A DNA stretch of 59,941 bases, counting the filler, from Hausera hauseri (taxonomy: Eukaryota): assembly GCA_046269625.1 (NCBI GenBank). It is 10 parts of 10 records of this genome, joined end to end, with 100 filler letters (N's around TTAATTAATTAA, not from the genome) between each part and the next. Parts side by side here need not be neighbours in the genome. Positions count along the whole stretch, not along the records: positions 16,806 to 27,751 come from JBJURY010141093.1; 9 more parts are not named here. One strand, written 5' to 3'. Positions 374-49,519 of this stretch are shown one piece after another. The position numbers and the translations under genes are program-made. A model generated the notes under the pieces. That model worked only from the letters and a program-made list of their open reading frames with translations. It was not told where the DNA came from and made no database searches. How positions within the stretch are numbered: the first letter of the stretch is position 1; each line of letters opens with the position of its first letter.

Positions 374-715
374 GCTCAAGGGGCTTGCAGGTAAACTTCA
401 ATCAGAAGTGACCTACTCTCTGATCTGAAGCAGCACTGCAGATGAACATTCTATTTATGTTGCACTCCTCAGGAAAATAAGTTCAGTGGAAAAAGTATTT
501 CTCCTTCATTTCTAAAGATAAAATGAAGCTCTTTGAATGAGTGCTTTGAAGTTTCCTGAAAATCTTTTTTGCAATTCAGCTGAGTAAAGAGATTCGTCAG
601 CTGTGTCACCCTACAGTTTGTCTCTTCTCAAATTAGTTTTCCATTTGAAGGCTCAGTAGAATGCAGTCAAAAGTGCTCAGATTTTTTTTGGTCAAACACA
701 CGTCACTTTTGTGGG

Positions 716-2374: not shown

Positions 2375-2870
2375 GCAGAGTGAGTATCTGTGGATCCAAA
2401 TGGTCAAAACAAGGAAAAATACTAAATAGTAGAAAGCCAAAAAAGGATATATGGAAATGGATAAAGAACTCTAGCAGTAAAGAACGAGACAATAAAATTA
2501 ATAGTTGTACTCAATTGTACCAAATCAAAACCAGGAATCAGGGAAGACCGTTGCCAAGGGTACCCATAACCGATGATAATGATGTGGAAGAGTTAAAAGA
2601 GAATCAGATGGATGCGTTATGTAGCGGTAGCAGTGCTAAGTATATTAAATACCGAGAATTACGGCAACAATTGAAGGGCATGAAGAACGTTACATCAAGT
2701 AGATTATCTATCGCCGAAGTAAGGCTAGTAAATGAAGAAAATTCGAATACTGACAACAAGAACATGACGGTAAAAGTACTACGCTTTAATAATTTTGTGC
2801 ATTACGCTCTACTAAAAGGAAGATGGAGACGAAGAGACCATATACATTGGTTACCGTTCATGAAGATTAG

Positions 2871-5310: not shown

Positions 5311-5329
5311 GGCACCTTTAAATTTATAA

Positions 5330-6493
5330 GTGGAAATACTGCAACAAACGGGCATCGCCCAAACCAGAAACGAGTTAATCTCATCAAACCAAGGTGTGTC
5401 GAAACTCTCTATATTGTATACGTTTTGCCTGTTTATGAGCTTGTGTTCGACATCTCGTGGAATAGATATTGACTGGGGATGGACTCGTCAGAGAAACGAA
5501 TTACGTTTATATACGTTGGTATCAGATATTCTTAATGACATTAAGGTTGGAGTTTTTATGATACAGGGTCATAGGCAATACCAACGGTTCTACTGTGAGT
5601 TTAAACCACTAGGAGGCCACTGCCACTATAAATATCCGGATGAAGGAACACTACAGCAAGTGATCGAAGAATAGGTTAATGGTACTCAAATCAGAAGATA
5701 GAATTCAGAAATAATAAAGATCACGACGTTTTCGTATCAAAAGGAAATCCCAGTTTATATATATTTGTCTGAGAACCAAAAAGGGGTACAAATGCGAGTT
5801 GTCTCGAGAGGGCAAAAATGCCCACTAATGATTAGGAAACAAGGGGAGAGCTCTAAACGGGTAGTTAGATATCAACGCGATTTTAACTATAGCGAATCAG
5901 CTTGGCTAGAACTCAGTTGTTACACAGGCAATCTGCGCCGGTATATTAATTTCCAATGGATTCAAGCACAAGCTAAGCCGTTAAATCTATCAGGCGAATA
6001 CCTTTAGGAGAGAGTATCGTCAACGAAGGATGATAAATTAAAGGAAACGTATAGAGTTCCGTGGATTTTTATACGGCAAGATATGAATATTGTCACAATC
6101 TTGTTGGGCTCGTATCACAGAGCAATAAAAGTACTGTGTCGTAGTGCTACAGGACATCAGGTAGAGAATGGTGGTTTTAATAAAATTCAGGTCACGAAGA
6201 ATTATAGCCTTGAGATTTCAAGCACTAGCTACGACATTGTCCAATTAACCTTTATTATACATGGCTTAAATAATTTTATGCTACTTAATACCACCTTAAA
6301 ACTCATTGTACCTAAACTATTGTTGGTTTCAAAGACTATAGCAAAAAACGTGTACACCCTACTGTTTCTTCTATGCTGCAATGTCTTATCTCGAATATCA
6401 CTTATATATAAAAAATCAAAGAAAGGGACGCAGGAAGAAGTACCACAGCAGACAACAAGACCCAAGACGGCAAAAACACCATTGCATAATTGA
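5330..6493 (+). pseudogene. Putative type I membrane protein downstream of pol (disrupted)
   Basis: Signal-like SILYTFCLFMSLCSTSRG; Cys-containing ectodomain fragments; hydrophobic YTLLFLLCCNVLSRISLIY followed by basic KKSKK. Confidence 0.55.
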
Positions 6494-7343: not shown

Positions 7344-7715
7344 TTTTCTTGCAGTTACGAAACAAAATACATCGTCCTTTGTTAGTGGCACAAGTAATGG
7401 TGCACATTCTATTCGATTAACTATGGGTAGTAATTCGTATTGTCGCAAGGCATCCCACACCTCATTAGGTGCTAAATCTGTCATTTGTAATTTAGCTTTT
7501 ATTGTTTCTATTAATAATTCTGAAGGTTCACCGTATACTATAGAACCTGGTGGTATATTTACTTTGGGAATAAACCTCTGGTTTTTGATTGGTGGTAATG
7601 TGGCTTCCGAGTGTTGGAGCGTATCCGACATAGATATAAGTTCCTCATCTAACATTTCAAATATTTCGTCATCATTTATAAATTGAAGTTCCTGTCTAGA
7701 TGTGCTCGACTGCAT
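7344..7715 (-). CDS. Retroelement ORF fragment of unknown function, cut by contig end
   Basis: ORF 7296..7715 on the same A-rich strand as the gag region; runs into N. Confidence 0.45.
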
Positions 7716-7868
7716 CCAATTTCGAAGGTTTTCAAATAATGACGGTCATTGGGGTGGAACCTTTGGTTGAGTAAGTGACGCAATTAATTTGTCACCATAA
7801 GGATCTATCCATTCTCGAGTTGGTCTTATTTTAACAGGTTACTATGAATATTCGTCAGAATCCATATC

Positions 7869-8531
7869 CTAATGTATTTGAGCTATTGGTTCGATTCCTG
7901 GAATTGCTCTTGCTTCTTCCATTTTTTTAAGTTCTTTTATTACTGGGAAAGATATTCGTAATGTTTTCTGACTTTCTATTACCCAAGGTGTGTTATATTC
8001 TGTTCGCATTGTCTTCAAATATTCGTCTAAGCATCTTTGTGCCATAACTTCTAAATTGTGACCATTATATAGATCTATACATCTATAATTCCTGTTTGTT
8101 TGTTCCAGATCATAAATGGCGGTTAGATTTGCTGGGTTTATGTTTAATGTATTTAGCAATTCTGGTAATTGTCGTCCGATAATTATTTTTCCTGGTAGAT
8201 ACTTATCCATAAATTCGCTTACCGATTCTTGACGCTGAGGATTAAACCGTCTACTGTATTCTGTGTATTTTGTGTTATCTAGGATGTTTGGGTATACGTG
8301 AACGTTAAGGATTGTTTTCCCTTCTAAATTCTTTGCAGTGATTTGTGTTAGTCCTTTCTGATTTCCTTTGGTTATAAATCTACCGGTAAGGATTATTTCT
8401 TTATCCTGTGTTACCGGTTCTTCTATAGTTAATTTGGATATTTCCTTAAGTAATTGTATTAAATATATCGGACAGTTATCTAGAGGCTGAATCTGATAAT
8501 CTCCATCATAAGGGTAATTGGGAAGTATCAT
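7869..8531 (-). CDS. Degenerate DEDDh (REX4/ISG20-like) exonuclease-fold domain 2
   Basis: LTQITAKNLEGKTILNVHVYP...YLPGKIIIGRQLPELLNTL...IYDL parallels REX4-type ARVSIVN.G.VL..YVKP...L.GRILVGH.L..DL..L; catalytic acids not evident. Confidence 0.5.
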   Translation of the reverse strand: MILPNYPYDGDYQIQPLDNCPIYLIQLLKEISKLTIEEPVTQDKEIILTGRFITKGNQKGLTQITAKNLEGKTILNVHVYPNILDNTKYTEYSRRFNPQRQESVSEFMDKYLPGKIIIGRQLPELLNTLNINPANLTAIYDLEQTNRNYRCIDLYNGHNLEVMAQRCLDEYLKTMRTEYNTPWVIESQKTLRISFPVIKELKKMEEARAIPGIEPIAQIH

Positions 8532-8548
8532 AGTTTCTTTTGAGACTA

Positions 8549-9300
8549 TTACTGCTTTATTGTCAATTTGAACCGTGCTTCTCCTTTATTAGTAATTACA
8601 ACACATGGCGGATCATTTCTATTAATCTGAATATCAGTTCTTTTAAGGTAGATTTTATCTATACCTTCCATACAAATTGATCCTTGTTTGGCAATATCTG
8701 TAAACTCTATTCGATTAGTTTTCTTATTTATAAGCAATTTATCCCAATGTTGGGCAATTTTCATATCCATGGGTTGTAACGTGACTTCTGGTATTAAAGT
8801 GGTATTACACGTTACTTCCTGTTGGGGATATCTATTATCCTTAGTTAGAGGTCTACTTGGGAAAATATAACATGGAGATCCTTGATGATTAAGTTTGATT
8901 TTGTATTCTTGTCGTAAATTATTTAATTGTTGTTGTAATGTACCTTCTCTAATCCAATAATCATCTGGTAAATTAAAGTTCTGATCCACACTAAATGTAC
9001 CGAAGACATGCGTTTCCCTTAATTGAATTTGTTTGAATAACCAGGGCAAATCTGTTCCCACAACAAGTTTTCCACAGAATAGCTGTCTTAAGTTTTCGTA
9101 ACATGTTTCTTTTTCCAAGTGTACGTTTTCTAATTCGGCTATTACATCACCTTCTACATTCTCTATTCTTATTTGAGTGATTTCTGATGCCTGTTCGTCA
9201 TCTATGGTTTTATCCCAAGCTACAAAGGTTAAAAGTAAATTTTTAATTTCTTTGGTTTCCGGCCATAATATGTATGGTAGTGTATTACTTTGGATGTGGG
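8549..9300 (-). CDS. Degenerate DEDDh exonuclease-fold domain 1 plus linker
   Basis: ITQIRIENVEGDVI...LFCGKLVVGTDLPWLFKQI resembles domain 2. Confidence 0.4.
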
Positions 9301-9349
9301 ATTTTTCGTTCAGCTTGATCCAGATACTTTCTGGTTATGAAAGGTTTTT

Positions 9350-11400
9350 CTAAAATAGAAATATTAGATGGTGATTAGATTTATTTTGATGTCGGTCCGC
9401 CGTTGGTTTAGTGAATAATAATCCTGTAAATGCTGATTTGGTCTGTTCATTAAAAGTTACTGATCGACGGGGTGAAACACTTCTTTCCTCATTATTACCT
9501 CTTCTATTATCTGGTGAGTTTTCTTTTTCTCTTATGGAATCATTATAAGGTGGTGTTGAATACGGTTTTCTTTCATCATAATATTTAGAATTTCCTGATG
9601 TCGCATTTCTATTGTATCTAGGTGGAGAAAATCTTCTATTCATTGGTGAATCATTTCGTCTGTAATTATAATCTGATGATCGAGTATATCTATCATTATT
9701 ATTGTTATTCAGTCTATGGGAAGGAGTTTGGTTTCGGTCTCTTGGAGTATATGGACTAGGATTCCTATTATATCTACGATTCTCGTCGAGGTGGTATATA
9801 ATCATGTCTTCTATCATAGTTTACTGATCTTGGATCATTATATCTGTTTCTGTTATCAGGATTATATCTATCTCTACTATCAACGCGCTGATTATTTCTT
9901 TCTCTGCTGTCATTTCTATTAAATCCACCATATCGTTCTCGACTGTCATCCCTTCTAAATCTCTTACAACTTTCACTTCGTCTTTCATTAAAATAATTAG
10001 ATCCTTTTGAACGATTGTTTGGATATCGCGTTTGGCTATCGTCTTGTGGATATCGTGTTTGACTATCTTGTCTGTAATATCAGTTCGTTTGACTATTTCT
10101 GTTTTCGTAACGATTAGAATTTCGGTCGTTATTATATCTTTCTCTGCTAGGAAATCTATTTCTGTTATCATTTGTGTCTCTTGAATAATCTCATGGTCTG
10201 TCATATCTTGTATCATTTCGTTGTCGGTCATCATAATTTTCTCTATTTCGTTGATATTGTATATCTCTTTGGTGATTGATTATAATTTCTTTCTGGAGTA
10301 TTACTTCGCTGCGGTGTATTATTACCTTGTTGATTAGGGCTTTGACTTCTTGGAGAGTCTCTCCAAGGCGAACTACTACGATTGGGTACGTCTGACCATA
10401 CTAATAATGGTGCTGTAGCTACTGCTGCTACTTGCGTTTGATTGGTCCATAAAGGCGTTTCATCCACTCGAGTCGCCATTTTTCTGGCATAATCTATTAA
10501 TTCGTTAATATTGTTAGCTGTATGAAATTTAACTCCTTCTCGTAAGGGTGGTAAGAGCCAGAGTACAAAATGCTTTATAATCATAGCGCTAAAAGCATCC
10601 ACATTAGGGCCAATATATCTATTCATTGCCGTTTTGAATCTATTAATATAAGTTAAAATTTCCTCATTTGATTTCTGTTTGCAATTTTAAAATTTTAAGT
10701 ATCTATTTTCTTGTATATTGACCTGTTGATTTCGTAAAATCCTTTTTCTGTATCGGTTCGAAGTTTCATTATCCAATCTAGGTAGACGAGTTATTGCCGT
10801 ACTTAAATCACTGTTCACATGTACTGGTAACATGGATATTTTCTTTGCCTCATCCCAATGCATAGCTGTAGCCAAAAAATCGTATTCATCTAAAAAGTCT
10901 TCCTATTTTGATACTTGTCCTTCGTATGGTTGGAGACGAGGGAGCATCTGATATTTTTCTTCCCTTCTTCTCTCCTCTCCATTTGGTAAACCATAACCGA
11001 CGTTGTTACGGTCATAATCTTCACGGTGGGCCGCTGGCCCTTGATTATTCCTTTGCGGATACATGTTGTTGCTATCAGTGTCAGAGATTTCACAAGGTAT
11101 GGAATCTACGTCTATTGAAAACTCTTGTGATTGGATTTCTTCTCGTCGATCTATTTCTTCTGGCCTTATTTGTCCAATTCGTTCATTTAACTGGTCTATT
11201 CCTCGTGTTAATATTTCTATTCGATTTCTGGTACAATTATTTTCCTCCTGCATTTGTTCCCGTTCATCTACTATAATTGCTACTCGATCTTGTATTTCGC
11301 TTATCCTTTATCTTACTTGCCTTTTGTTATTATCAATTTGTTCCCTATTTCTTTTTATCATGGTTATACCGTCATCAGTTTCATATCGTAGGTTATATAT
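9350..11400 (-). pseudogene. gag: Retrotransposon Gag-like protein: coiled coil, capsid, long RS/RD/SP-rich C-terminal region
   Basis: LPRLQPYEGQVSK*EDFLDEYDFLATAMHWDEAKKISMLP (capsid N-terminal pattern); KQKSNEEILTYINRF (major-homology-region-like); then DSRER, SPRR, SPP repeats. Confidence 0.75.
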
Positions 11401-12736: not shown

Positions 12737-15700
12737 TTATTTTAGCCGCCAATGTCCATACGCCCAACTCTTATTTCTCCCAACCCACTTTCACTTATCA
12801 TCGTCACATGACAAAGCGACTTTCGCACTAGTTATTGTGTACAGCTGGTGCTGAATTGATTGGATTATAGTTTGAGACACAACAGCCACTGATTGTCCTC
12901 CTTCTCATGCTGTAGCTGCTGCTGCTTCATATATACGGCAATAATCACCGTGGCCAATTTCCGTCTGCTGCAACTGGAATCCTTTTGCTCGAATTTTCGG
13001 TTCACAGTCTGTCAGGAGACTGTAGCACTTTGTGCGTAAAAATATCCATTCCCGATACTGAACCAGACCTTCATTTTCATCCGTGAAGCAGCCGATTTTG
13101 TTGATTATCGCGCTGCTGTATAACGGATGACACGGTTGGTAATTGGACGTGTCCAGTAACCCATCTTACTGTATTTTATGCAGTATCTGTTCGCGATTGA
13201 GTTTTTTAACCGCAGGAAAAAACCGTCTGTGTCACTGGCAATTATACTAATGTCACAGCCGTCAAAAATTTGCCGGTAACGTTCCAAGTTGCGATACTGT
13301 AGCTTATACATGCGCAACTTGCTCATGTCCAATACCATTTGTCCGATGTGACTTGGCCGATCCAGTATGACTTCTCCTCTGTTTAATAGCACCGCAACCA
13401 ATCCATCGTCAATGCTCATTGATTGCCGAAATTGTCTTGCTGGTATACATAATCAGCCGCTTTTCGGTGTTGCATAGGCGTACATTGAGCCGCTTTTTCA
13501 GATTCGCCACTGTTTGTCCGTACAGGGAATTGTTTTCCAGTTTGTAACCGTCATTTTTGTACTTTGAACAAGCTGCGGCTCGTTTCTCCGAATTTCCATC
13601 TATGCACGCCTTGAATATAAGCGCCTAAGCAAATTGGATTGCACGATGCAGCTATGCAACGCGAACACCGAGCTGCATGCAGAACTGTAGCAGATGCCAA
13701 TGGACCACGTAATTCAGCTTCGGTTCATGCGTCATGAGCAGTTTCTTTACTTTTGAGCCTGGTGGACATTAGTTAAATGGTGCAACCGGCAAATCGTCCA
13801 AAACGTCATGCAGCTCATCTGGTATCTTGAGATCGACCGCCATAAGTTGTCCGACTGAGCTTGTCATGTCTGCTCGTGGTAGGTTGACCATTATGTCGTC
13901 CAGATCTTGTCTGTCGACTACCCATTCGAATGAACCGTACGGCGAGGGTTGCGGAAGTGCCCAGCCGTACAAGTTATTAATACCAATATACAGCAGTAAT
14001 GTGGTATCGGTAGCACTGACTGCTGCTTGTTGACAAATGCCATGCCACCTGAAATACCAACATCAAACAGTTGGTACATTTCCGGGTCTTGCAGCAGCTC
14101 AATATCTCGATCCAGTGACATTAGAGCTGACGCCCAACTCTTTCCGAGTATTGAGTAAAAGTTTAGTGGTTTCAGCCTATCTTCAGCCAACGCTTTCGCC
14201 CGAAACGCTTGGAACACATCGGTTAATAAGTACACGTCCAATTACGATACTGAAGCATGTAATCCAACATGTTTCTGTAGCCGAGTTCTGTCCAACACAT
14301 CTGCACTTTCCGGTATTCATCCTCTGCGATACCTGTCCATCGTGGCGGTAATTCCTCTGCTGTTCGGAGTCTCTCATATGATGCTGCAAAGTCATATGGG
14401 AATATGCCTTTGCTACGCGCAATATGTGTGGAAAATTTCGTCAATATTATCGGCACATCCGAGAAGGCATTTACGAGATTTGCTAGAGACTCATTGAGAA
14501 ATTGCAATAAGTCGAGGAAGCGTACTTGGAACCGGTTTATGCGTGCTGACAGGGACAGGTATTTCTCGATTGTTGTTGGGATTACTGACAGTTCCCAGTG
14601 AGCAAACCCATTAATTGTCCATTTCAGTATATGGTGACAGTAATAACCTCAAAAATTATGAAAGATTACCGGCAGGAATGGCCGCACACGCCTTTCCAAA
14701 TTGCACAAATTGCATGCTGATCCCAAATATCGACCGGTGAAATGGTCATGGTCCGGTACAAGCCGTTCGTGTGCATCGAACGGTAATATTTTGTGGCACA
14801 GATAGCATTCATCGGTTGCAGCGAACATCGGCGGTTCATATTCATCTGTCCAAATCAATGGTTTAATGGAATTATTGCGATACCACGGTTCGATTTCCGT
14901 TTCTATTATCGTTTCCAAACGCTGCAAAAAATTACGTACGTAGTTCCAGCCGTGAAAGGCGTAATACTGTGGCTAACAGACTGCTTTTATTGGACAAACA
15001 ACATACCAACGGCGATTAAAACGTGTTTTTGATCCCACATGGTGTGCAGTGGTAGAATTGCCTCAATATCGGCATATACCACATATGCCAGACTGTTCGT
15101 TTTTGACCAGTCACTGAATCGGAGCTCCTTTTTGAGTGGCATAACGTACATGGTTGTTCCAGTTGAATTCTGCTTGCACAGCGTCACATGTTTCGACCAT
15201 TTTGTTTTTGACCTGAATCTATGCAGACATACAGGACATCATTTGCATTGTATTCGCTTTTTGATAAACTGGTCATGCTCCATGTTCAACAGTCTATTTA
15301 GATTTGTCACTGCCACGTAATGAACTTTTTCGGCCTGCTCCAACAGCAACAAATTTACCGAGCGTCAGTTCGGGTTCCGACTGCAATAAATTATGTCCGC
15401 ACCGGGGTTCTTATAAATTTATTCGTTTTCCGGTATTTCAATTATTGTGTTGTACTAGAAAACATTGATTTACAGCACCGGATTATGCCGTTCAAAAGCC
15501 GGAATCATTTTCATCGGCATCCAGAATTCATTAAATTTAAATTCGGAAACGTACTGCCGATACTGATTTGGACGATTTGCATGATATCTGTTCACTTCGC
15601 TGTACTTCAATACAGCCAGAATACTGTACAGAAAACAGTATTCGTCGTCAGTATTTTGTACATTCACTACCGCCAGAGACTGCTTTAGATATGCAGGTAT

Positions 15701-16190
15701 CCTATGAATAACCGTCCAGACAAATATACCACGCCACTCAACTTTGTTATGATAAAGCCGAGTGTGACACTTCGTATAAATTGCCATCCACTATCCTTTT
15801 CGGTATAGTTGGCGATCTTCTCATCCAACTTTTCGCATATATCGGCAATAAAATCTTCCGAATACGGTACGGCTCGATATGACAGGTACCATTGTTTCCT
15901 GTCACCTACAACGTTTTCAAATTATGCAAGTGCATAATATTGCACTTTGCAGTTGTTGCGTTTGAATTTATCCACCTGTAATTCCAACCGGCTACGCACA
16001 CCGGACGGAACATGTCTCAGCTGTACTGTTGTTGTCCTCGAAATGTTTGCTTTCATGTCCACGTACGATTTGATTAGATCGTACTTGACAGTAATGGAAG
16101 GTTCCTGCTGTTGCACCTGCTGCTATTCGGTACTGTTTTGGATGTATTCGTCAAGACGTGTTCAGGCCTGACGTTTCCTGCTTGTTCAGA
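12737..16190 (-). pseudogene. Polinton/adintovirus protein-primed DNA polymerase B (pPolB)
   Basis: VVYADIEA; DHDHFTGRYLGSACNLCN; VIFHN; KGIFPYD; DVYLLTDVF; NNLYGWA; NSLYG; SDTDG; C-terminal DDDK...SWAYGHWRLK* ending at 12737. Confidence 0.95.
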
Positions 16191-16608
16191 GGTTACTGGT
16201 TTTTTTCGTCGACATCACTATTTCCTTTCTGGACCGCTGAAATTGGTTTATGTGGTCCTTGTGCTGGTTATAAAATTGTTCATAGCTGATTTTATCAACT
16301 ATCGAACAACCGGGACAAACGTAGGCCCGTTTACCGTGCACCATTGTGGCGTCATAGTATTGCCCCATTGCACTATGGCAACCATCAACTTCATGTACTC
16401 TACTACTACAATATCGGGGGTATGTGTGGCAATGCACAAGCATCATCTTTTTTGCACGCTTAAACGGCCAAGATGATGCTTGTGCATCGCATAAAAGTTG
16501 GGGTATAAACAAGGGGATGAAATAATAACGCACGTTTGGCCAAATGTGAGTCCGTGCCAACGGTGTAACATTTAGCCATCTGCTGATGGTACTGTTCCTG
16601 CTCCGCAT
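16186..16608 (-). CDS. Cys/His-rich (C2H2-like) region immediately upstream of pPolB
   Basis: YVCPGCSIVDKISYEQFYNQHKDH; homologous to 46839-47462 and 54060-54472. Confidence 0.65.
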   Translation of the reverse strand: MRSRNSTISRWLNVTPLARTHIWPNVRYYFIPLFIPQLLCDAQASSWPFKRAKKMMLVHCHTYPRYCSSRVHEVDGCHSAMGQYYDATMVHGKRAYVCPGCSIVDKISYEQFYNQHKDHINQFQRSRKEIVMSTKKTSNL

Positions 16609-16805: not shown

Positions 16806-17087
16806 TGGGCTGCACACTTGAACTGTTCACCAATCGATGCATCTCGATGTGCTCTATCGAGTAGCACTTTGTCCCTATCGATTTGATTAATGGCGCACTG
16901 TGCAGCGATCGATTTGCCAAATGTGCAAAAGTGCCCTTAGCAACGGTGCCTGGCGCCACCGTTGCCAGGCACTTTTTGTATGGATAGTGCTCCGGGTGCA
17001 CTATCGATTGGCATATGTGCAAAACTGATTTATCGATTACCCCTCCCCCCACCCCGGGTGGGACAGAAAGCACATTTTCACACTACT
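16806..17087. mobile_element. Probable Polinton terminal inverted repeat end
   Basis: GC-richer palindromic block ending CACACTACT; ACTACT at 17082-17087 is the reverse complement of the canonical Polinton 5'-AGTAGT terminus; abrupt switch to A-rich retroelement coding sequence afterwards. Confidence 0.65.
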
Positions 17088-17195
17088 GACGAGAAAATAA
17101 GACAATTGTTGCCACAAATATGACAATTTGAAGAAACTTGCATTAAAACCAAACAGAGAGCGGTAAGATTAGACGAACTAACTAAAGGGCTCAAA

Positions 17196-18167
17196 GTGTA
17201 TAAAAATAACTATGCTCTTACAGAAGCAGAAAAGACTGACAAGTCACAATTTGTTCAAAGATGGCCAAGAGACGTAGCCTCCGAGTTAACCAATTATCAA
17301 GAACCAGGATTTATATCAGGTGAAGAATTGTGTCAGCTGCTAACAGTATTACGCCAAACTTCCGGAAACGGACGTTGTTTCCGAAGCACACAAATGGTTA
17401 TAATGCAACAAAAACTACGGGAACTAAGAGAATCAAATAAGGATGCGAACTTAGTCCGGCCGTTAGAAACTCCGGAGATTGATTTCGGACTACCCGAAAA
17501 CGAAAACGAATGGGACGCGTATCTGAATGCAATAGTTGCCGAAAACCCGAAAACTCCCGTGCACTTGTACGAAACGGAGACATGTCCACCAGATCAGAGA
17601 TTCAATGTGGAGATGCTTCTGGACTCGGCACAAACTGAAAAGGATCTAATAAAGTTAATAAATGTAAACCTTACCGAAAATCAATTAAGACGGTTAGTTC
17701 CCACCCTAACTAAATTATCTAGCGAAGGTACGATTTATCGTGCTGCACAAAAACTTTTAATCAAAGAATATGCTAAAATCTTAAGGACAAGGCCCGAAGA
17801 GACGATTAAAGTAATAATAACGTCTGACTGAATGGACTAGAAGGAGCACGAGTTTACAACACGTTCCCTTGTGAAGGATGTAGCACTGTGGTTAAGGAGT
17901 AATGGTCATAAAAATGAATTGAACTGTAGGCTTCATTTTAGAGGAAGAATATTAGACAAACTGGAACTACTAATAGAAATTGGAATTATTCCAGACGAAG
18001 CAAACCGCATAGCGGTTACCATTCCCACCGACGAAGCAAAAGAAGAGGCCACCAGAAGGGCGAAGACTGAACAGTGGGTAGGACGAATTGTAGGAGTTCG
18101 ACATGCAGCAATGTACTTCAAATACTTGCAAAAGATGAAGACAAGGAACAATATGATAAGAATTTAG
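17196..18167 (+). pseudogene. N-terminal ORF with a ubiquitin-like domain (about 17800-18030)
   Basis: ORFs 17196 and 17871 are in one frame across two stops: TIKVIITSD*MD*KEHEFTTRSLVKDVALWL...CRLHFRGRILDKLELLIEIGI, compared with ubiquitin [21 protein letters not shown]. Confidence 0.55.
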
Positions 18168-20283
18168 TGCCACCCAGTAATATCGCACAGACAGTAACCA
18201 AACAGAAGCCTCCTGTCGGCAGGCCACGGAAGACACGAGAAGAAATCGACTATAACGGAGACATATTCGAATTTAATAAGACCACAAGCTTGGCAAGGAA
18301 GGCTGCCAGGAAACTGCCCCAAGAAGTAAACTGGTCCAAATTATTTGAAAAAGAAGAAGAACGTCAAAATAGACCCTTTCTTGACAATAATAGATTTGTA
18401 GACCTGCTACAAAACGTAACCGGAAATAATAGAGGAAATGGGCCAAACTGGCTAATTAACTTCTTAACCGTGATGATGTTAATAAGACAAATGGGTGCAG
18501 TTACAGTGTACGACTGCGGCAAATATAAACTTGGCCAAAAATACTCATTAATGGACTTAGAAATGTGTGAGGATGCGAGACCACATAAACTAGAAACAAA
18601 AGAGAAAAATTACGTGCTATACCAACAACGCGAACTAGTTACATTAGACGGAATAGAATGTATGTTGCGACGATCCCGTAGTATTTTCCATTGTGGACTA
18701 GTACATGAGCATATATCGATAATCAAGCCAACAACCCCACCAATTCCGATGAACTTAGAACGCCAGCACTGTAAGCAAGCTAGACAGACTGGAAGATTAA
18801 AATGGGATGACATGGAATTGGAAATGCAACAAGGAAAGATAATTAGAGTATATAACCCGGCAGCTGGAAGACTACATATGCATATCGAACATTGTCACGG
18901 TACGGAGTATGATACTGGAAAGGGATTAGAGTCGAATATCGTAGTGGTAGATTTTTACAAAACCGAGATGCGCCTACAAAAGGTAATGTTCCGTAGCGTT
19001 ACTAAACTTTACACGGAAAACCAGAAGTGCCACATTCAGGACGGTACTTGCTCTTTTAGAAGCTCCGTGGTAATTTGGGAACTCCCAGCCAAGGCCGATT
19101 GCAATTTTATCAGAATTAAAGAACTTAAGTTTAATGAGACAACAGGGAAACGATACATACGTAGCACGGAAACTAACTCTAAAACACGAGAAGATGTAGC
19201 CAAACAGTCCACACCTGCTATACTGATTTCTGATATTTATGGATTAAAATTTGTGAAGATGTACTAGAAAGATGCAATGTCATAATGTACGCCACCAATT
19301 ATGAAGAATTCATTGTAGCTGAGACGGAGATAAACGCCAGAACGTTTAAGCTCGAGACTCAAGATATTCGAATTGAGGATTATTTGAAAGAGACGACCAT
19401 TTCTACTATAAAGGACAAGTTGGAATAGCCGAGTTATATAACAAAATGATAACAAATGACTGCAAATTTGACTTGGAAGTTATGAGGACTAAACTGGTTT
19501 TAATATATGATAACCCCGAATTAGCGTCACTAATAATTCCGATGAAAGAAGGCGTTTTCGGTCGGGTAACCGGAGAAGTCCTGCTGACCTATAAATGTGA
19601 AAAAAACGATGAACCTATTAATATGGAAGAGAAGAGGTGTATACAGGAACTTCCAGTAATATACCAAGACGTACAAAGGTTAGTAACACCAATTACTAGA
19701 GTATTGTTGGCAAACTCTACTCAACCGACAATTTTGAGACTGCAAGACCAGCCTAGGCGAATCAATGTTCAGACGTAGCAAAACCTATTGGGTAAGTTTG
19801 CCAAACGGCGGCATAATTACGCTGCAGACCAAGTTAACAGGAACAAACTTAATAATAGGAAAAACCGATGATAAATTTCAAGATACCGCCGCAAAGGGCA
19901 TTTAACGACCAAAAGAGGTAGAGGCGTTCAGACAATTCCTCGCTTTTCCTCGTCAGCGCACACATGAATTAAACAGAACGATGCATACAATACCAGAGGA
20001 CTCGCGTTATCAAGCGAAGTGGAAATCATTGCTTGGTGTCAACTACTACCGAAGAGTAACTACGGAAATATTGTATAAAATTTGGGGAAGATTCCTGATA
20101 TTCGAACAAGCCGCGTCAGGATTCCTAGCAATTTATTTCTTGATTCAACTGATCAAAGCGATAATTCAAGCGATTATAAATGGATACGAGATATTCACTT
20201 TGACAGGATTCTCGTGTAAGATTCTAACAGCTATTATAACACCTCTCGGTAAATTCTTAAAGGCTTATAAAGAGAGTAAATAG
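18074..20283 (+). pseudogene. Chuvirus-like glycoprotein with internal signal peptide and C-terminal membrane region
   Basis: WLINFLTVMMLIRQMGA/VTVYDC...YSLMDLEMC...IECMLRRSRSIFHCGLVHEHISII...CKQARQTG...AG...CHG...GVFGRVTGEVLLTYKC...CIQELPV...IWGRFLIFEQAASGFLAIYFLIQLIKAIIQAIINGY. Confidence 0.85.
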
Positions 20284-20959
20284 AAAGCGGATGTGGAACG
20301 ACATGTTGACTACCATAATCGAAAACGTAAGACATTCGATTACAAGCAAAAATTCATGGATACTAATACACGAAGATATAACTCTGACATGACGAGCCTA
20401 AGGGAGGAGACGTTCTCTCCAAGTCGAACAGGCACAAAAACTACTCTGCTATGAAACTACCATTACCAATACTACCGCCAACGGCACCTATATATGAAGA
20501 CTGTGAGAAACAATCTGAGCTCGTGCCAGACAGGAGTCAATCGGAAGCCGTTTAATCTAGAGGATCCTTACGAAGGAACAAAACACTATGGGATATTGCG
20601 TAAGATCCACGAAACAAAAAGAACGTCTGCCCCACATCGCCGCGCGGCAATCGACGATCACGGTATAATTTATTCACCTAGAATACCTAAATCAAACGAA
20701 AGGCAGTCAACATTTACCGGAAGCCGCGAAACACACCATCTCAGAAACCAAGAGATCCAGCCGCCAGTTAGAAAACAGGAGATAGAAAACGTAAATGGTA
20801 TGAATAACGAACTATACCCAATTGGAGTGTTAAGACAATTAATCGATTGGCCAGTTGAAACCACTGATGTCACCATCAACGGCTATACGTTATCCACAAT
20901 ACGACACCCCCACATAGAACCAAGCTATTACGGTGCCGTAATCGAAGGAAGCCCTTCGC

Positions 20960-23900
20960 AAAAATTCAAATAGAAGATTGGGAAGTTTGCGGACTGATAG
21001 ATACAGGATCCTAAATCTTGCTGATAAAGTATAATTCGATACCACAATTCCTAAGGAAACAATTATATCCATCTCCTACAACAGACCCAGGAAGTGTCGG
21101 AGCCTTCGGCCAATCGTCTAAAAGCAAATTTCGTTGGAAATTGGAAATTCGCATAATGGGACAATCTTTCCATCATGAATTTTCAGTAATGGAACAATTA
21201 ACGGATGATGTAGTATTGGGGTGCGATCTATTGAGGCAACTACCCAACATAGCGATAGATTTCAATGCAGGGAAATTAATAGAACTTGGTCCAATAAAAG
21301 GATTAAAACCACTAAATACAAAAAATTCGGAGAAATGTGGATTCCCGTGGATGAAAACATACCGCCCAGAACCGAATTGCTAATATATGCTCAGATACGT
21401 CATGATGACGATCAGAAAGTATATTTTAAGCCAAAAGAATCGATTAATCCTAACATTGTGCTCAGCAACGTTTTGACAAGAGTATCAACGGGCCGCGTGC
21501 CAATTAGAATAGCAAATAACGCACCGACCCCGATCAAGCTATATGCCAATACCACTTTGGGACACACGTATAGAGTGTCATCAATTACTATCGAAGAGAA
21601 ACCGTATAAAGGCTCCGAATTTCCACCCCACGTTGAGATCAAATTTTCACCGGAGTCATATAGTCGATTTTACGAATTACTTTGTCGATATAGCTCGGTT
21701 ATCGTAAAAGATGAAGAGGATATTGGCCGAGCTAAAGCTTTAAGACTCACGATCCCACTTAAGAAAAAGCCTGGGTCCAACGATAAAATAGATTTAGAGG
21801 ATCAAAAGATGCCGAAATTGTATCCCCTCCACACTCGTTAAGACCGGAGATAACCAAGGAGGTTGAACGGATGTTAAAGGCAGACATAATCAGACCAAGC
21901 TATAGACCTTATTATTCACCTATCCTTATGGTTAAGAAGAAATGTACCACTAAGCACCGATTTTGTATCGATTATCGAGCGTTAAATACGCTCACGATGA
22001 AGGACTCTTTTAAATTACCATCGGTAAAGAAAGCTCTGGATAGGCTTTCTGGAGCTAAATGGTTCACCACACTTGATTTAAAATCCGGATATTGGCAAGT
22101 AGAAATAGAGGAAGAAGACCGTTACAAAACCGCGTTTAAGACACACGACGGTATATACGAATTTAACGTCATGCCATTTGGAATAACTACCGGACCAGCC
22201 ATCTTTACCGGCATGATGAACAAGATGCTGATGGGATTAGAACACGCGTTCGCCTACCTAGATAACGTCATGATTGAGATAAAAACGGAAGAGGATCATT
22301 TAAAGGATATTGAAGGTATGCTCATGAGATTGAAGCAAGCTGGATTGAAACTGATTCCTAAGAAAGGCAAATGGGCTCAAAATGATGTATCTTATCTTGG
22401 ACACAGTCGGGGAAGGAGGATCAAAGCCGGATAGATCATTGCTAAATAAAATATAGGACTGCATGGAACCACAGAATCAAAAGGAACTAAGATACTGGTT
22501 GGGATTATGTCAGTATTATGCTACGTATGTTTCAGATAATTTGGAGATAAACACACCCTTGAATCGCTTGCTTAAAAAAGGGATAAAATGGAAATGGACC
22601 GACGTTGAACAGAAACATTTGATGAAATGACGAAAATTCTAACTAGTGAATCTGTATTAAGATATCCTTACTTCAACCTAACGTTCATAATCAAAACAGA
22701 CGCCAGTAAGGAAGGCATCGAATACGAACTAGCTCAGAAACGAGGAGACGAGGAACTAGAACATCCGATCGCATATGGAGGGGGCTCTCTAAAGAAAGCC
22801 GAGAAAAACTACTCTGTAACGAAGTTGGAAACGCTAGCGGTGAATGAAACACTGAGACATTTTAATGTATACGTCTATGGACAGAAGATTGTAATCGTCC
22901 CTGGTCACAAGGCGGTCACAACCTTGAAAGGTAGAGCAAATAATCCAACCTGTAGACTCAACAGATGGATCTAGGAGATCTCACGTTACAACATTGAATT
23001 CCAATGCAAGCCTGGAAATAAACATGTCGATGCCGATGCATTATCGAGACTTAAAACTAAGACAAGCGCAGTTGCGGTAATGAGGAAAGCCCACCTGAAA
23101 GACTTAGTAGAAAGACAACGGACTCTCACACTGGATAAGGCATTGACGATTTCTATCGAACAGAGAAACGACAAAGTTATACAACAAATTATCGAGTTTG
23201 TTGACACCAACAAACCACCAAATGGTCATAAGTTACGGAAACACCTACGACGACATGGTCACAAATACTGCATCGTAAGAAATTTGAACCACGGAAATGT
23301 TTTGTACCACAGACGAAAGGGACGAAAACTAGTCGTCATATTAAAGGGACTACGTGCGGAAGTACTAATGGCTGAACACGACTCATACCTAGCCGGACAA
23401 ATGTCGTGGAAGAAAACATTGGAAAAAATATTAAATAAATATTACTGGCCGAGCATTTACATTGACGAGATAAATTGGGTGAATGCTTGTGAAGTATACG
23501 CAATCAAACAGAGAAAAGTGAAAAACTACATCACGGAACTTAAACCTATCAATGTGCCAGATAGACTAATGCAGGCAATGTCCATGGATATTGTAGGACC
23601 ATTGCCTACAACTCACAAAAACAATAAATACATTTTGACCTGTGTAGACCGATTGACTCATTTCGTCGAGCTTATAGCGTTAATAGACCAAAAGGCCGAG
23701 ACTTTGGCAGAAGTAGTAGTCTGGAAGATTATTTGCAGATACGGACCACCTGAACAAATTTTGACAGACCAAGGAAGAAACTTTACAAGCAAATTGTTCG
23801 AAAAAATTAACAAAATTTTTGAAATTGGACGATTAACTACCACAGCTTATCATCCCCAGTGTAATGGAATGGTTGAACAGATGAACGCGACAGTTACATG

Positions 23901-24420
23901 AATCTTATCAACAGTAGTCGCAAAAGACCAGAACGATTGGGACGAGTTTTGAGAAGACACAGTTTGCCATTAATACTACACCACATCCTGCGACGGGATT
24001 CACTCCATTTTTCATGATGTACGGTAGAGAAGCTGTATTGCCCACAGATTTAGGACTGATCCCATACATAACAAGAACGGAAGATTTAGAGCAAAATTTT
24101 GTCGAGATTACACAAGTGCTGGGAAATAGCCAAAGAATTATCTAGAGAATACCAGGAACAATTCAAGAAGCAATACGACAAGAAGGCGAAACGACACAAC
24201 CTAGAACCAGGAAACTGGGTTTACGTACACTATCCAGTGGCAAAGAAAGGCACGTTTGTTAAACTTACCAGGACAGGCAAAGGACCTTATGAAGTTATCA
24301 AAACTACATCAACCACAGTTTATATAAACAAAAACGGCAAGGAGGAGGTCATATCAATTCAAAGACTAGTCAAAACGGAAATAAGACCAAACAAGCGCTA
24401 TAGTTTGCGTTCGAGCAAAG
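20960..24420 (+). pseudogene. pol: Gypsy pol: protease, RT, RNase H, integrase with GPY/F
   Basis: GLIDTGS (DTG 21000-21008); RFCIDYRALN; LDLKSGYWQV; YLDN (mutated YxDD); KTDASKEG; MDIVGP, LTDQGRNF, NGMVEQ (DDE); GKGPYEV. Confidence 0.97.
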
Positions 24421-24469
24421 CAAAATTGGACTATACAAACAAAGAAAAGAAAACGTTGTCGATAGTGAC

Positions 24470-25798
24470 TAGACCAATATCGTATGTACAAGTAGTCATC
24501 GCCTTATCGTTAATCGCTTCGTATATACCAAAGACAAGGTCGATAACCCGAACCGAAAACTACAGTATGCGGCAAGACGAAGAGATATCCAAAACTTACA
24601 GTCACTTAGAGTATATGATATGGATTGGAGCAAACCATGTGCATGGTTCGAAGCAAGTGAACCTATTCTGGGCCATGTAAAATTTCAAATAATCTTTGTA
24701 ACTAGATACACATGTAAAACATGCGATTTTCCATACGGAGCTCATAGACAATGTTGTAATTTAGATTTCAGACAAACCTACCGATACAGATTTCAAATGT
24801 TCTATTATAATCAGCCCAGAGCCCAAGCATATATAATTACTGAACTTTTAATAAGGATGCCTCAACGAAATGACACGAACCAAGCCAAGGCGGATGAGAT
24901 AATCCAAAGTACTGATGTATTTAAAAGGCTCTTAGATTATAACATTGTTGGGATTTCCAATGACCTAAAGAACCAATGTATCCGAATCAAAACCAAAATA
25001 GAACTGCAAGGAGACAGATACATTTCTGCCCGATTTATACAACTGAATGCCTCGACTCCTATTCCGGAGTATTGTTATCTCGCACGACGACGGCCTACGG
25101 TATGTTGTAAATTGCAGCTAGGACACAACTACCAGTTACAGTTTGATCTGTACAACACTTACCCTAAAAAACCGAGTACTTACTTACGAGGATACCGTCC
25201 AAAAACCGGAATATAGAAACTTCCGTTTTTAACCACTACAAGGAAACCGTCCACTATTCCAAGTACAATTCGCACTACTGCAATCGTCACTTCGGAGGAA
25301 ATGCCAGAAAAAGAACTAGGGAGCATACCGGTTAAGATTTTGGCAAAAAGTGATAAAATTCTATTTTATGCTGACGAAACGTTAAATCAAGACGTCAAAA
25401 TTGAATGTCGCATCCTGCACATTAACCAAATCATAATCCTAAGAAAGAATAGTCAGGAAACTGAATGCAGTTCATTGCGACCGCAGCATAACTATATAAT
25501 CCGAATCACCTGGAAGAGTAAAAACCCTAAAACTTTTACAGTCCGAACTCTTGACAACAAAATTGATGTAATGCAGTATAAAGATCTTAGTACTCAGAAT
25601 GTGTCTACCACAAAAGATTCTATTGAGCCAGACAATTTACCGATGATAGCTATATTAAGTTTGTCAATTTTCGTTCTTGTCGCATTAACAGCGATGATTT
25701 TTCTAGTTTCCAAAAATTGTAATAAAAACAGTAAAAATCAAAAGGGAGATAAACGGGTAAAAGGATGCCAAGACGAACTTTATGATAGCATAACTTAA
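24470..25798 (+). pseudogene. Second type I membrane protein with three Cys-containing FN3-like repeats
   Basis: Signal-like YVQVVIALSLIASYIP in frame with the IN tail; repeats CCNLDFRQTYRYRFQM, CCKLQLGHNYQLQFDL, ECSSLRPQHNYIIRITW; TM MIAILSLSIFVLVALTAMIFLV then basic tail. Confidence 0.65.
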
Positions 25799-25903
25799 CA
25801 ATTACACATCAGGTTATCCTATCATCAGACAGCGAAAATGTTTTGTTTCAAAACGATGATCTGTCTTAGGATTGACCTTTATTTTTATTTTAGCAGAGTA
25901 AGT

Positions 25904-27150
25904 ATGGCCGAAAAAGCGAAGAATCCAGCCACCAGCTCCGGATATGACATCGAAAACGTCATGCAGCAACATGTAACAGTCCTCAAACCATTATCTAAAA
26001 ACGTATATCGTCAAATTGAAGAAAATCTGAAAAACAACACTTACGTCGAAATCGATCAGGAAAATAAAATACCAAATGGGTTAAAATGGGGTTTAGAGGA
26101 AAATCGACTGATTCGGCTATACGAAATGCGAAGCCCCAGAGACGCACGAGCATACCTGTTGAGAGATATGATTCCATATGAACCGACGCATCAGCAATTG
26201 TACGTACATATCGCTAACGGAGAAATTCAATACAGGATCGTAAGTCAATCCTGGAGCGCACAAAAGGGGCAACAATGGAAATTTAGCACTTATGAGTTAT
26301 GTTGCTATAGTCTCATGAACTATGCTATGGAATTTAGAATCGCAGAAATTCCAACCAAACTCATGTTCGAAATGATCTGGCGGACAGAAGTAATGAAACC
26401 GCTACCACCATTAATGTGCATACAAAAGCCTTCAGAAGATGAGATAAAAAAGAATGTAGAATCTTATAGATTAGTTCAGACGGCCATAATACTCGAATTT
26501 TAGTTGTGAACTATGGAGAAAAGGATGGTGGATGGTATACGCCGATTGAAGTCGCGATTCGAAGTACAAACTGGGAAGAACTTATAAACAAAATAATTGC
26601 ACCCAGAACTAGGGTGAAGGACACCTTTCCCGATGTTACCGGAATTACGAAAGTACTACTCGAAATATGAAAATATTTCTTAGAAATCCAGGAAGATATA
26701 AACCATTGCTTATATGGATGTATTGCAACCGGATTTCGAGTGCACGAAATGTTGGAACGACTGAGAATTAGACAAGAGTATATATCCGGAATTCGCGAAC
26801 TAAGTCGGAATCCAACGGTTGTAAGACGAGTAGAAACCGTTTTAGTGAGAAAAAGAGGGTGTCTACTTCCGTCAGCATCACGTAAATCACAATTCAAAAT
26901 GATGTTATAAGCCATGAATGGCGAACGATTTAAATTTCCTAAACTAATGTCAGCGAGTCAGCGTACGAAGCTTTAAAGGTCATTTACGCCTCTCTGACAT
27001 GGGAACATGAGTGGAAACCTATGAACCCCATACAGAATGTGATGTCCGACAACAATCCAAAAATCTTGATACAAAAATTTCTAAAAGGGTTTAGCGAATA
27101 CTCAACTCATACAAGTTCAGCCGCAAGGACACAATCGATTTTGAGTAACG
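25904..27150 (+). pseudogene. Accessory ORF of unknown function
   Basis: ORF to 26503 from ATG 25904, with coding-like continuation in another frame; same strand and composition as the element. Confidence 0.45.
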
Positions 27151-27494
27151 GTTCATAATAATTCAACGGAAACGCCCAACCGTCGACCAGCCGAGCCCGA
27201 GAAAAAATTGAAAAAAATTCAAGTAACCCCGAAACTTTGAGAGAACAAAAACTAAAACTCCCTTCTTAGAGTATATTATCAAGAAAAGAAGGAAAACTAG
27301 TAAAAACCCAGTAAAAGAAAACAAGTCACCTGAGCATACAGAAAAACCCACAAGACGAGAAGCCGATAATTCTGACGAGATCAAGATGAGAACTGCCGAT
27401 ACAAAACTCCGTAAGATGGAAGTGTGAGGAGGAATTTAAACGGATATTAAGGTTTAAATTCAATTCAAAGTTAGTTCAAATTTAAGCCAATAAA

Positions 27495-27751
27495 ATGTCA
27501 GGAAATTCAGGAAAGGAGGAAAATAAGACTCATTTAATGAGTGAAGAAGACAATTTTTATACAAACTTTTATAATAAATTTCTAACGCATAATTCGGTCT
27601 TAGAACCATTGAGTGACGCTGATGTCGGTTTGATAGAAACGCAATCTACTAAAATGGCGAACCACGCTTCAAGGGACTTCTTCGAAAAGAAATTGATGCC
27701 AAAAGAATTCCAGAAAGGTGACAACGTGGAAACCTTTATTGGAAAATGCGA
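27495..27751 (+). CDS. Start of a Gag-like ORF, cut by contig end
   Basis: LMPKEFQKGDNVETFIGKC resembles the P..F..G.....F...F start of retrotransposon capsid domains. Confidence 0.5.
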
Positions 27752-46900: not shown

Positions 46901-47174
46901 ATTTGACATTAATATCGGATTCCTGTTGTATCTGTTCCTCTTGCTGTTGCTGTTCCTGCTGATCCTGATGTTGCTGTTCTTCTTCCAGCCCGGTACTAGT
47001 TCTGATGTGTTTATCCAGACTTGTTGATACTTTACGTTTCCTACTGGTTGTTGTTGTTATTGTTAAAGGGACGCTGCTGATTTTTGTTGATTCCATTATT
47101 AATTCTTTTTTCGACCACCGCTGAAACTGGTTTAAGTGGTCCTGGTGCTCATTGTAAAATTGTTCATAGTTCAT
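43928..47174 (-). pseudogene. Polinton pPolB, same subfamily as 12737-16190, 3' end cut
   Basis: KGSGW; DEYCFLYSILA; DHDHFTG; YIDINNLYGWALS; KLKNNSLYGK; GDTDSF; DNA visibly alignable with contig 3. Confidence 0.95.
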
Positions 47175-47186
47175 TTCATAAACTAT

Positions 47187-47462
47187 TCAACAACCGAGAC
47201 AAATATAGGTCCGTTTACCGTGCACCGTTGAGGCGCGATAGTATTGCTCCATTGCACTATGGCAACCATCAACGTCGTGCACTGTACTTGTACAGTGCCA
47301 TGGGTACATGGGGCAATGCATTAGCATCATCTTCTTAGACTGTGTAAATTGTCCGAGATGACGCATATGCATTTCATAGAAATGGGGGTACGGACATTGG
47401 GTTGAAATATTACACGTCGGACACAGATATGTGTCCATTCCAACGTTGTAATATTTCGCCAT
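47187..47462 (-). CDS. Duplicated Cys/His motif region upstream of pPolB
   Basis: YLCPTCNISTQCPYPHFYEMHMRH and YICLGC.../YEQFYNEHQDH. Confidence 0.65.
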   Translation of the reverse strand: MAKYYNVGMDTYLCPTCNISTQCPYPHFYEMHMRHLGQFTQSKKMMLMHCPMYPWHCTSTVHDVDGCHSAMEQYYRASTVHGKRTYICLGC

Positions 47463-48920: not shown

Positions 48921-49001
48921 TAATTATCATGTACAAAATAATTTTTTGTTTATAACACAAGCAAAAACAACTAACTATTATTATTATCATTATCGCAATA
49001 A

Positions 49002-49445: not shown

Positions 49446-49519
49446 CACTATTCTTATGTCAATATTAACATTACACGTANNNNNNNNNNGGTAAAACAAT
49501 AAAATTTATTAATAATTAA

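What the first reader, a model, noticed from the sequence alone, without database searches (positions are those of the whole stretch)
18074..24420. Ty3/Gypsy element with a chuvirus-like fusion glycoprotein upstream of pol: candidate new enveloped retroelement lineage
Seen: a full-length glycoprotein (signal, Cys-rich ectodomain, C-terminal hydrophobic region) lies about 700 bp 5' of the protease, on the same strand and with similar composition and decay as PR-RT-RH-IN. Known: env genes of retroviruses and errantiviruses lie 3' of pol; errantivirus env is baculovirus F-like; chuvirus-type glycoprotein capture has been reported for BEL/Pao elements. Inference: an independent capture of a chuvirus-type (probably class III) fusogen by a Gypsy lineage, in an unusual position, suggesting a formerly infectious retrovirus-like agent. 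I do not know of this layout being described, but cannot search.
Basis: partly seen in the sequence, partly recalled or inferred. Interest (0 to 1): 0.92.

Follow-up and report, generated by a model that had tools for sequence, protein, structure and literature searches.

The report
Decayed Burro-like enveloped gypsy retroelement
This is a broken copy of a retrovirus-like jumping element that carries a viral membrane-fusion gene in front of its polymerase genes, a layout already published for flatworm, roundworm and moss-animal elements; only a likely second surface protein after the integrase may still be undescribed.

Summary
Three collinear pieces at 18449-20283 match Pfam PF24664 (chuvirus-type fusion glycoprotein), about 700 bp before a Ty3/gypsy PR-RT-RH-IN. 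An intact relative's envelope folds like herpesvirus gB (E 1e-13). The envelope lies inside the element: intact relatives read gag-cargo-env-protease-pol as one ORF, their ubiquitin-like module matches 17616-18020, and a second divergent env-pol element lies in the same window. The novelty claim fails. Env in frame between gag and pol was described for planarian Burro/GYPSM1 (PMC6431247), and GAG-ENV-POL gB-type gypsy elements for nematodes, bryozoans and flatworms (PMC13524379). This copy is decayed, multi-copy, and lacks gag and LTRs on its contig; the host is undetermined. The remaining extra is a predicted single-pass membrane protein after the integrase, also in intact relatives, which I did not find in print. 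The scan noted this layout and that extra before on other DNA. Verdict: new member of a known kind.

The parts
17616..18020 (+). helical plus ubiquitin-like cargo module of the gag-env spacer, broken by stops
   Evidence: profile from 5 relatives hits it at iE 9.6e-10, 27.3 bits; best of 20 shuffles 0.1 bits. The ubiquitin-like label rests on Pfam ubiquitin E 0.031 in P0121 and on the Burro description
18449..20283 (+). gB-type (chuvirus-like, class III) envelope: internal signal segment, Cys-rich ectodomain, transmembrane segment; five frame pieces
   Evidence: PF24664 in three pieces; 14 conserved Cys columns; fold of relative L001 matches herpesvirus gB
20284..20939 (+). envelope tail and linker to the protease, no family match
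   Evidence: P0132 aligns to 20418; no Pfam hit for 20455-20970; env-to-protease linkers of 35-298 aa in 6 intact relatives
20940..21290 (+). retropepsin-type aspartic protease, broken by a stop
   Evidence: D-T-G motif; RVP E 0.099; aligns to relatives' protease
21332..21571 (+). conserved PR-RT spacer domain, at the position of Burro's dUTPase-like domain; identity not confirmed
   Evidence: profile of 5 relatives iE 1.8e-12; no dUTPase hit in Pfam or PDB
21787..22434 (+). reverse transcriptase, Ty3/gypsy type, active-site motif degenerate
   Evidence: RVT_1 E 1e-32; best named PDB hit Ty3 Gag-Pol 1.1e-41, top hit 4ol8 RT/RNase H 1.8e-42, against HIV-1 RT 3e-12; motif read
22609..22974 (+). 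RNase H
   Evidence: RT_RNaseH_2 E 1.5e-25, RT_RNaseH E 1.6e-23
22975..24425 (+). integrase: H2C2 zinc finger, rve core, GPY-type C-terminal domain; broken
   Evidence: Integrase_H2C2 E 4.4e-12, rve E 4.1e-13; GPY at 24282; C-terminal part aligns to relatives
24462..25798 (+). predicted second single-pass membrane protein after the integrase (signal-like segment, ectodomain, Thr-rich stalk, transmembrane segment), in three frame pieces
   Evidence: hydrophobic peaks at 24462 (KD 1.73) and 25652 (KD 2.84); same position and topology in P0132, P0188 and L001; sequence similarity to them not significant (iE 0.064)
25904..27158 (+). separate downstream ORF with its own ATG, broken; no known relative; membership of the element likely but unproven
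   Evidence: ORF pieces; no Pfam, homologue or Atlas hit for its first part; covered by multi-copy contigs in run X1

Best explanation
This is a decayed genomic copy of a multi-copy Ty3/gypsy retroelement of the published GAG-ENV-POL, gB-type-envelope kind, likely a compact relative of the planarian Burro elements, whose active ancestor likely made gag, cargo, envelope, protease, RT, RNase H, integrase and a second membrane protein as one polyprotein. Shown: domain content and order, gB fold of an intact relative, single-ORF layout in relatives, decay, many diverged copies. Inferred: Gag and cargo would stay cytosolic; an internal signal segment would send the envelope ectodomain into the ER; its transmembrane segment would return PR-RT-RH-IN to the cytosol; and a second signal and anchor would place the post-integrase protein on the surface. 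Signal peptidase and the element's own protease would cut the chain. The envelope would let particles fuse with other cells of the host, as for Drosophila errantiviruses. This copy can no longer do so.
For: Pfam domain order. Of 23 of the 67 phmmer hits scanned (mainly the longer ones), 9 carry PF24664 followed by a retropepsin in the same ORF, 4 of them also RT-RH-IN, and 4 of the 23 have a gag mark (zf-CCHC or Retrotrans_gag) before env. P0188 (4,844 aa) and L001 (at least 3,426 aa, open ORF) add two more. The relatives' ubiquitin-like module hits 17616-18020. A second, divergent env-PR-RT-RH element sits at 727-5260 with no nucleotide similarity to the target. The 13 retroelement envelopes form one side of a branch (SH-aLRT 94). 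The window's RT has env-bearing relatives as its five nearest rows. A model of the L001 envelope (pLDDT 86) gives herpesvirus gB in all listed top PDB hits, best E 1.1e-13, TM 0.37. Profile against Wenzhou crab virus 2 G: probability 99.95, 569 columns, 20% identity. 29,931 contigs of run X1 lay over all 30 bins, mostly 90-95% alike, and 1,043 of 1,347 differing places are transitions. The published Burro order Gag-Ubi/SUMO-BCL2-env-PR-dUTPase-like-RT-RH-IN matches the relatives.
Against: No LTR, primer-binding site or upstream gag on this contig, and L001 shows no LTR either, so no LTR-bounded copy was seen. The Bcl-2-like module of the relatives has no match in the window. The PR-RT spacer gave no dUTPase hit. 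The RT tree was a quick search, not the finished careful one: the branch holding the window RTs has SH-aLRT 88 and includes one long non-env row, and two env-bearing RTs (P0136, P0140) fall elsewhere. The fold was predicted for a relative, not for this broken copy. The host phylum is unknown.
Confidence: 0.85

Rival explanations
1. An independent, previously unknown capture of a chuvirus glycoprotein by a separate gypsy lineage; the gag-env-pol order would be convergent with Burro and the nematode elements.
For: Chary and Hayashi state that GAG-ENV-POL elements are not monophyletic in pol. Env-bearing RTs need 3 changes on my tree. The window copy lacks the Bcl-2-like module and Burro's giant size. 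No direct comparison with Burro sequence was possible.
Against: Close relatives share Burro's unusual cargo order (ubiquitin-like, then Bcl-2-like, then env) and, in P0188, ankyrin repeats. The envelopes form their own group far from the chuvirus G in the set. Even if the capture were separate, the layout is already in print.
Confidence: 0.1
2. A chuvirus endogenous viral element that lies next to an unrelated gypsy fragment by chance or by nested insertion.
For: Dezordi 2023 found chuvirus-like glycoproteins beside gypsy fragments without clear evidence of capture (PMC10084718). No LTRs enclose both genes here, and no X1 contig listed spans env and pol.
Against: Intact relatives fuse env and pol in one reading frame. 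A second divergent element in the window repeats the order. Element cargo lies upstream of env. No viral nucleoprotein or polymerase family was hit among the contig's 20 ORFs scanned.
Confidence: 0.02
3. A BEL/Pao 'Anakin'-type element with a chuvirus glycoprotein.
For: Anakin carries a chuvirus-derived glycoprotein, and BEL/Pao share the PR-RT-RH-IN order (PMC7642597 passages; PMC12440569).
Against: The RT's best named PDB match is Ty3. It has gypsy-type RT_RNaseH and Integrase_H2C2 families and a GPY motif, and no Pao-type Pfam family was hit; which families mark BEL/Pao is recalled.
Confidence: 0.01

Closest known systems
Burro / GYPSM1 giant gypsy-like LTR retroelements of planarians (Jurka 2007; Grohme 2018; as described in PMC6431247 section 7, read in full)
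   Same: Env with mononegavirus-glycoprotein similarity in frame between gag and pol; ubiquitin-like module before env; a conserved domain between PR and RT; relatives with a Bcl-2-like module, ankyrin repeats and ORFs up to 4,844 aa.
   Different: This copy is compact (about 6.8 kb from the ubiquitin-like module to the end of integrase), has no detectable Bcl-2-like, MATH, BIR or ankyrin module, is decayed, and shows a post-integrase membrane protein that the section read does not mention. That paper relates Burro env to gypsy Env by HHpred; here the fold is gB-like.
HSV/gB-type GAG-ENV-POL 'ancient errantiviruses' (Chary and Hayashi, eLife 2026, PMC13524379)
   Same: Ty3/gypsy pol, gB-type envelope related to Chuviridae G, env before pol. 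Their table has 36 nematode, 10 bryozoan and 9 flatworm rows (from 72, 20 and 18 term counts).
   Different: They list intact, mostly LTR-flanked copies; this one is broken. Passage searches found no 'polyprotein' or 'accessory' in their text, so cargo and the second membrane protein appear not to be covered. Clade placement not testable.
Nematode NERVs (Sacco et al. 2022, J Gen Virol; not held, known from its citation in PMC13524379 and from recall)
   Same: Metavirus pol with an RNA-virus-type glycoprotein placed before pol.
   Different: Host and cargo could not be compared; paper not seen.
Anakin BEL/Pao elements of mosquitoes (PMC7642597, passages)
   Same: Chuvirus-like glycoprotein inside an LTR element.
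   Different: BEL/Pao pol, not gypsy.
Wenzhou crab virus 2 glycoprotein (P0178; a chuvirus, by recall) and herpesvirus gB
   Same: Same Pfam family and cysteine frame; same class III fold.
   Different: About 20% identity to the crab-virus G and 10-12% to gB; the retroelement envelopes are a separate group.

Membership tests
Ty3/gypsy (Metaviridae) | pol order PR-RT-RH-IN | tested here: met
Ty3/gypsy (Metaviridae) | RT closest to Ty3/gypsy rather than to retroviruses or BEL/Pao | tested here: met
   Ty3 Gag-Pol E 1.1e-41 against 3e-12 for HIV-1 RT; gypsy-type Pfam families. No BEL/Pao reference was in the comparison
Ty3/gypsy (Metaviridae) | GPY/F motif in the integrase C-terminus (hallmark per PMC12440569) | tested here: met
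   GPY at 24282
Ty3/gypsy (Metaviridae) | flanking LTRs, primer-binding site, target-site duplication | tested here: inconclusive
   no repeat within the contig; the contig ends in other high-depth repeats; L001 also lacks LTRs
Ty3/gypsy (Metaviridae) | gag upstream of pol | tested here: inconclusive
   gag profile has no hit on this contig, which is cut upstream; 4 of 23 scanned relatives have gag marks before env
HSV/gB-type GAG-ENV-POL errantiviruses | gB-type class III envelope | tested here: met
   PF24664; relative's model matches gB at E 1.1e-13; shared Cys frame
HSV/gB-type GAG-ENV-POL errantiviruses | env between the gag side and pol | tested here: met
   element cargo upstream and protease downstream; full order in P0140, P0168 and P0127
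HSV/gB-type GAG-ENV-POL errantiviruses | placement in one of the published pol clades | not testable with these tools
   the supplements read give coordinates and labels, not sequences
Burro / GYPSM1 | gag, env and pol in one ORF | tested here: inconclusive
   met in relatives; this copy is broken, so only inferred
Burro / GYPSM1 | ubiquitin/SUMO-like module before env | tested here: met
   iE 9.6e-10 at 17616-18020; the sub-ranges were picked by eye and the ubiquitin label is weak in Pfam (E 0.031)
Burro / GYPSM1 | Bcl-2-like module just before env | tested here: not met
   no window hit; weakly present in relatives (P0122 E 0.00096)
Burro / GYPSM1 | dUTPase-like domain between PR and RT | tested here: inconclusive
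   conserved spacer iE 1.8e-12, but no dUTPase hit
Burro / GYPSM1 | giant size (about 4,900-aa ORF, over 25 kb) with MATH, BIR or ankyrin modules | tested here: not met
   compact span and no such Pfam hits in the contig; the 5' part is missing
Burro / GYPSM1 | planarian host and RT clustering with Burro | not testable with these tools
   no genome held; run organism coded; no host gene recognised in the ORF lists (13 ORFs scanned)
Anakin (BEL/Pao) | BEL/Pao-type pol | tested here: not met

The most novel reading that the evidence does not exclude
Compact Burro-like elements form a distinct lineage whose single polyprotein ends in a second, fibronectin-III-like surface protein that serves as the attachment or trigger partner of the gB-type envelope, giving a retroelement a two-glycoprotein entry system like that of herpesviruses. 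All 5 relatives that run past the integrase continue in frame into a signal-like segment, 3 of them with a strong C-terminal anchor. L001 has a second such unit between its proteases, and its post-integrase protein resembles FN3 single-pass proteins (scores under 0.9, a lead only).
Probability: 0.15. Interest if true: 0.75.

Novelty: new member of a known kind. Interest (0 to 1): 0.3.

Why it matters
As it stands it adds further families, in an unidentified animal, to a known but thinly studied group of enveloped gypsy elements that put gag, envelope and pol in one protein. How gB-type retroelement envelopes enter cells without herpesvirus gD/gH/gL is stated as unknown in PMC13524379. The recurring post-integrase membrane protein is a concrete candidate for the missing partner and would make that question testable. 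The decayed copy itself is a poor substrate; the intact relatives carry the interest.

Tried and rejected
No whole genome is held. Word-index homologue searches for the env N-terminal piece and for the 25904 ORF found nothing. The Atlas gave no usable hit for the 25904 ORF. The integrase search gave only generic gypsy proteins at 27-41% identity. Scans of viral contigs and genome contigs found no relative; metagenome contigs gave one locus, L001, without LTRs. No RNA holder was listed, which says nothing on expression. Depth figures are not copy numbers, and X1 may be the window's own source. The finer read-laying of the 3' end was not obtained, so the LTR boundary stays open. A purine run at 26847 followed by TG was considered as PPT plus LTR start and dropped: it lies inside an ORF, no matching repeat exists and depth there is low. 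A single-sequence fold of P0122 was unusable (pLDDT 33). Sequence-profile hits to gB in PDB were not significant (E 0.8-1.9). The 27495 ORF looks gag-like by eye, but the gag profile misses it. Local profile-profile comparison of the post-integrase proteins timed out. Sacco 2022 and Grohme 2018 are not held, and Jurka 2007, Repbase and GyDB could not be searched; any of them, or supplements and figures I could not see, may already describe the second membrane protein. The 'not found in print' statement rests on searches (0 papers) and 107, plus passage searches.
Full report
Setting. The window is a chain of ten short contigs joined by N linkers. The finding lies on the contig 16806-27751. No whole genome is held. 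The other contigs hold mariner, Polinton-like and other transposon pieces, and no host gene was recognised, so the host is undetermined; an animal is inferred.

Observation. Pfam PF24664 (Monjiviricetes fusion glycoprotein) matches three collinear pieces covering model positions 6-227, 325-424 and 482-601 (E 5.7e-16, 2.9e-13, 2.3e-17). A weak retropepsin, RVT_1, RNase H, integrase H2C2 and rve follow on the same strand. The envelope runs from a hydrophobic segment near 18449 to a transmembrane-like segment ending before 20283; the protease motif is 717 bp further on. Base composition of env and pol is alike. Env lies in five frame pieces; pol has several frame changes and stops and a degenerate RT active-site motif.

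The envelope. Fourteen cysteine columns are invariant in 11 of 11 close relatives and kept in 8-9 of 9 distant glycoproteins; the window has 13 in column and the 14th at a frame break. A profile of the family aligns to Wenzhou crab virus 2 glycoprotein over 569 columns at 20% identity, probability 99.95. The envelope region of the intact relative L001, folded with a 59-row alignment, gave pLDDT 86. All listed top PDB matches are herpesvirus gB, best E 1.1e-13, TM 0.37. So it is a class III, gB-like fusogen family. The broken copy itself was not folded.

One element, not neighbours. phmmer with the N-terminal env piece gave 67 hits; I scanned 23 of them, mainly the longer ones. Nine have PF24664 followed by a retropepsin in the same ORF, four of these also RT-RH-IN, and four of the 23 have a gag mark before env. 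P0188 (4,844 aa; several proteases, ankyrin) and L001 (open ORF of at least 3,426 aa) add two more. A profile of a helical plus ubiquitin-like module from five relatives hits 17616-18020 at iE 9.6e-10, against at most 0.1 bits in 20 shuffles (sub-ranges picked by eye). The envelope is therefore flanked by element sequence on both sides. Contig 1 holds a second env-PR-RT-RH element, 26-47% identical in protein and without blastn similarity. Contig 2 holds gag plus cargo 45-51% identical to P0139, which continues into env. In run X1, 29,931 contigs lay over all 30 bins, mostly 90-95% alike, with 1,043 of 1,347 differing places being transitions. That fits many decaying copies; X1 may be the window's own source and its depths are not copy numbers.

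Pol class and trees. The RT's best named PDB match is Ty3 Gag-Pol (1.1e-41; HIV-1 RT 3e-12), and the integrase has a GPY motif. In a quick RT tree of 101 rows, both window RTs have env-bearing relatives as their five nearest rows. Support is modest (SH-aLRT 88, one non-env long branch inside), and P0136 and P0140 fall elsewhere. In the env tree the 13 retroelement rows are one side of a branch (SH-aLRT 94), apart from the group holding the crab-virus G. Median identity is 30% within the close group and 18% to the distant group. This does not look like a recent capture from a chuvirus.

What is missing. No LTR, primer-binding site or upstream gag was found on this contig. Both contig ends are very deep in X1 and look like other repeats. 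L001 also lacks LTRs. The relatives' Bcl-2-like module has no match in the window. The PR-RT spacer is conserved (iE 1.8e-12) but gave no dUTPase hit.

Mechanism. Inferred from the hydrophobic segments of intact relatives: one polyprotein with cytosolic Gag and cargo, an internal signal, a lumenal envelope ectodomain, an anchor, cytosolic PR-RT-RH-IN, a second signal, a second ectodomain and anchor. It would be cut by signal peptidase and the retropepsin. The envelope would mediate cell-to-cell spread as in Drosophila errantiviruses; no infectivity data exist here.

Prior art. [quoted passage not shown] PMC13524379 (abstract, text parts 2-5 of 11, sections 14 and 22, first part of section 9, passages, searched rows of supplements 1 and 4) reports gB-type GAG-ENV-POL gypsy elements in Nematoda, Bryozoa and Platyhelminthes, ENV-GAG-POL in two mites, and 114 arthropod gypsy elements with the Anakin-like glycoprotein. 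PMC10084718 (parts 1-3 of 5) saw only fragmentary gypsy associations. PMC7642597 (passages) describes Anakin. PMC12440569 (parts 1-2 of 5) gave the GPY/F hallmark. PMC11410931 and PMC8532177 (passages) only mention Burro. Sacco 2022 and Grohme 2018 were not held. I file it under gB-type GAG-ENV-POL gypsy elements and call it Burro-like, not Burro, because the Bcl-2 and size tests were not met.

Residual novelty. After the integrase the window has a signal-like segment (24462), an ectodomain and a strong transmembrane segment (25652). All 5 relatives that extend past the integrase (P0125, P0132, P0136, P0188, L001) continue in frame into a signal-like segment (for L001 judged by eye). Three have a strong C-terminal anchor, and L001 has another such unit between its proteases. 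Similarity of the window piece to them is not significant (iE 0.064). The Atlas places the L001 protein near FN3 single-pass proteins at scores of 0.83-0.89 with low recognition, a lead only. Searches found no paper on this. An earlier scan note reported a second surface protein on other DNA; that is not independent support.

Verdict. Real feature, correct biochemical reading, known architecture. New member of a known kind; interest 0.3.

Noticed in passing
window 584-6493 (+): Second, divergent env-PR-RT-RH element with the same order, most of its integrase missing, and post-integrase ORFs ending in a hydrophobic segment.
   Followed up: partly
window 7344-11307 (-): gag capsid (profile iE 1.5e-10 at 10567-10935) plus long cargo, 45-51% identical to P0139, which continues into a gB-type env: likely a third family of the same kind.
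   Followed up: partly
window 27495-27751 (+): ORF start that looks gag-like by eye, very deep in run X1; one X1 contig joins 27308 to 17332, hinting at a tandem or permuted arrangement. The gag profile does not hit it.
   Followed up: partly
window 16806-17100: Palindrome-rich, very deep repeat, possibly a MITE, that cuts the element on the gag side.
   Followed up: no
window 13091-16452 and 43928-47336; 48475-59941: Two 75-86% identical copies of a Polinton-like region with type B DNA polymerase (E 1.9e-6), plus an rve integrase at 52053 and a TBP-like ORF at 50097-50819 (E 2.7e-6).
   Followed up: no
L001:10617-12107 (+): Separate RNase_T (DEDD) exonuclease ORF downstream of the polyprotein (E 1.4e-5); P0136 seems to carry an exonuclease-like module before env (by eye).
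   Followed up: partly
P0188, P0127, P0126: Polyproteins with many tandem retropepsin domains (7 stretches in P0188), C2H2 finger and ankyrin repeats.
   Followed up: no
P0132: An env-pol polyprotein filed in NCBI as a Flavobacteriaceae MAG protein, likely animal contamination of that bin.
   Followed up: no
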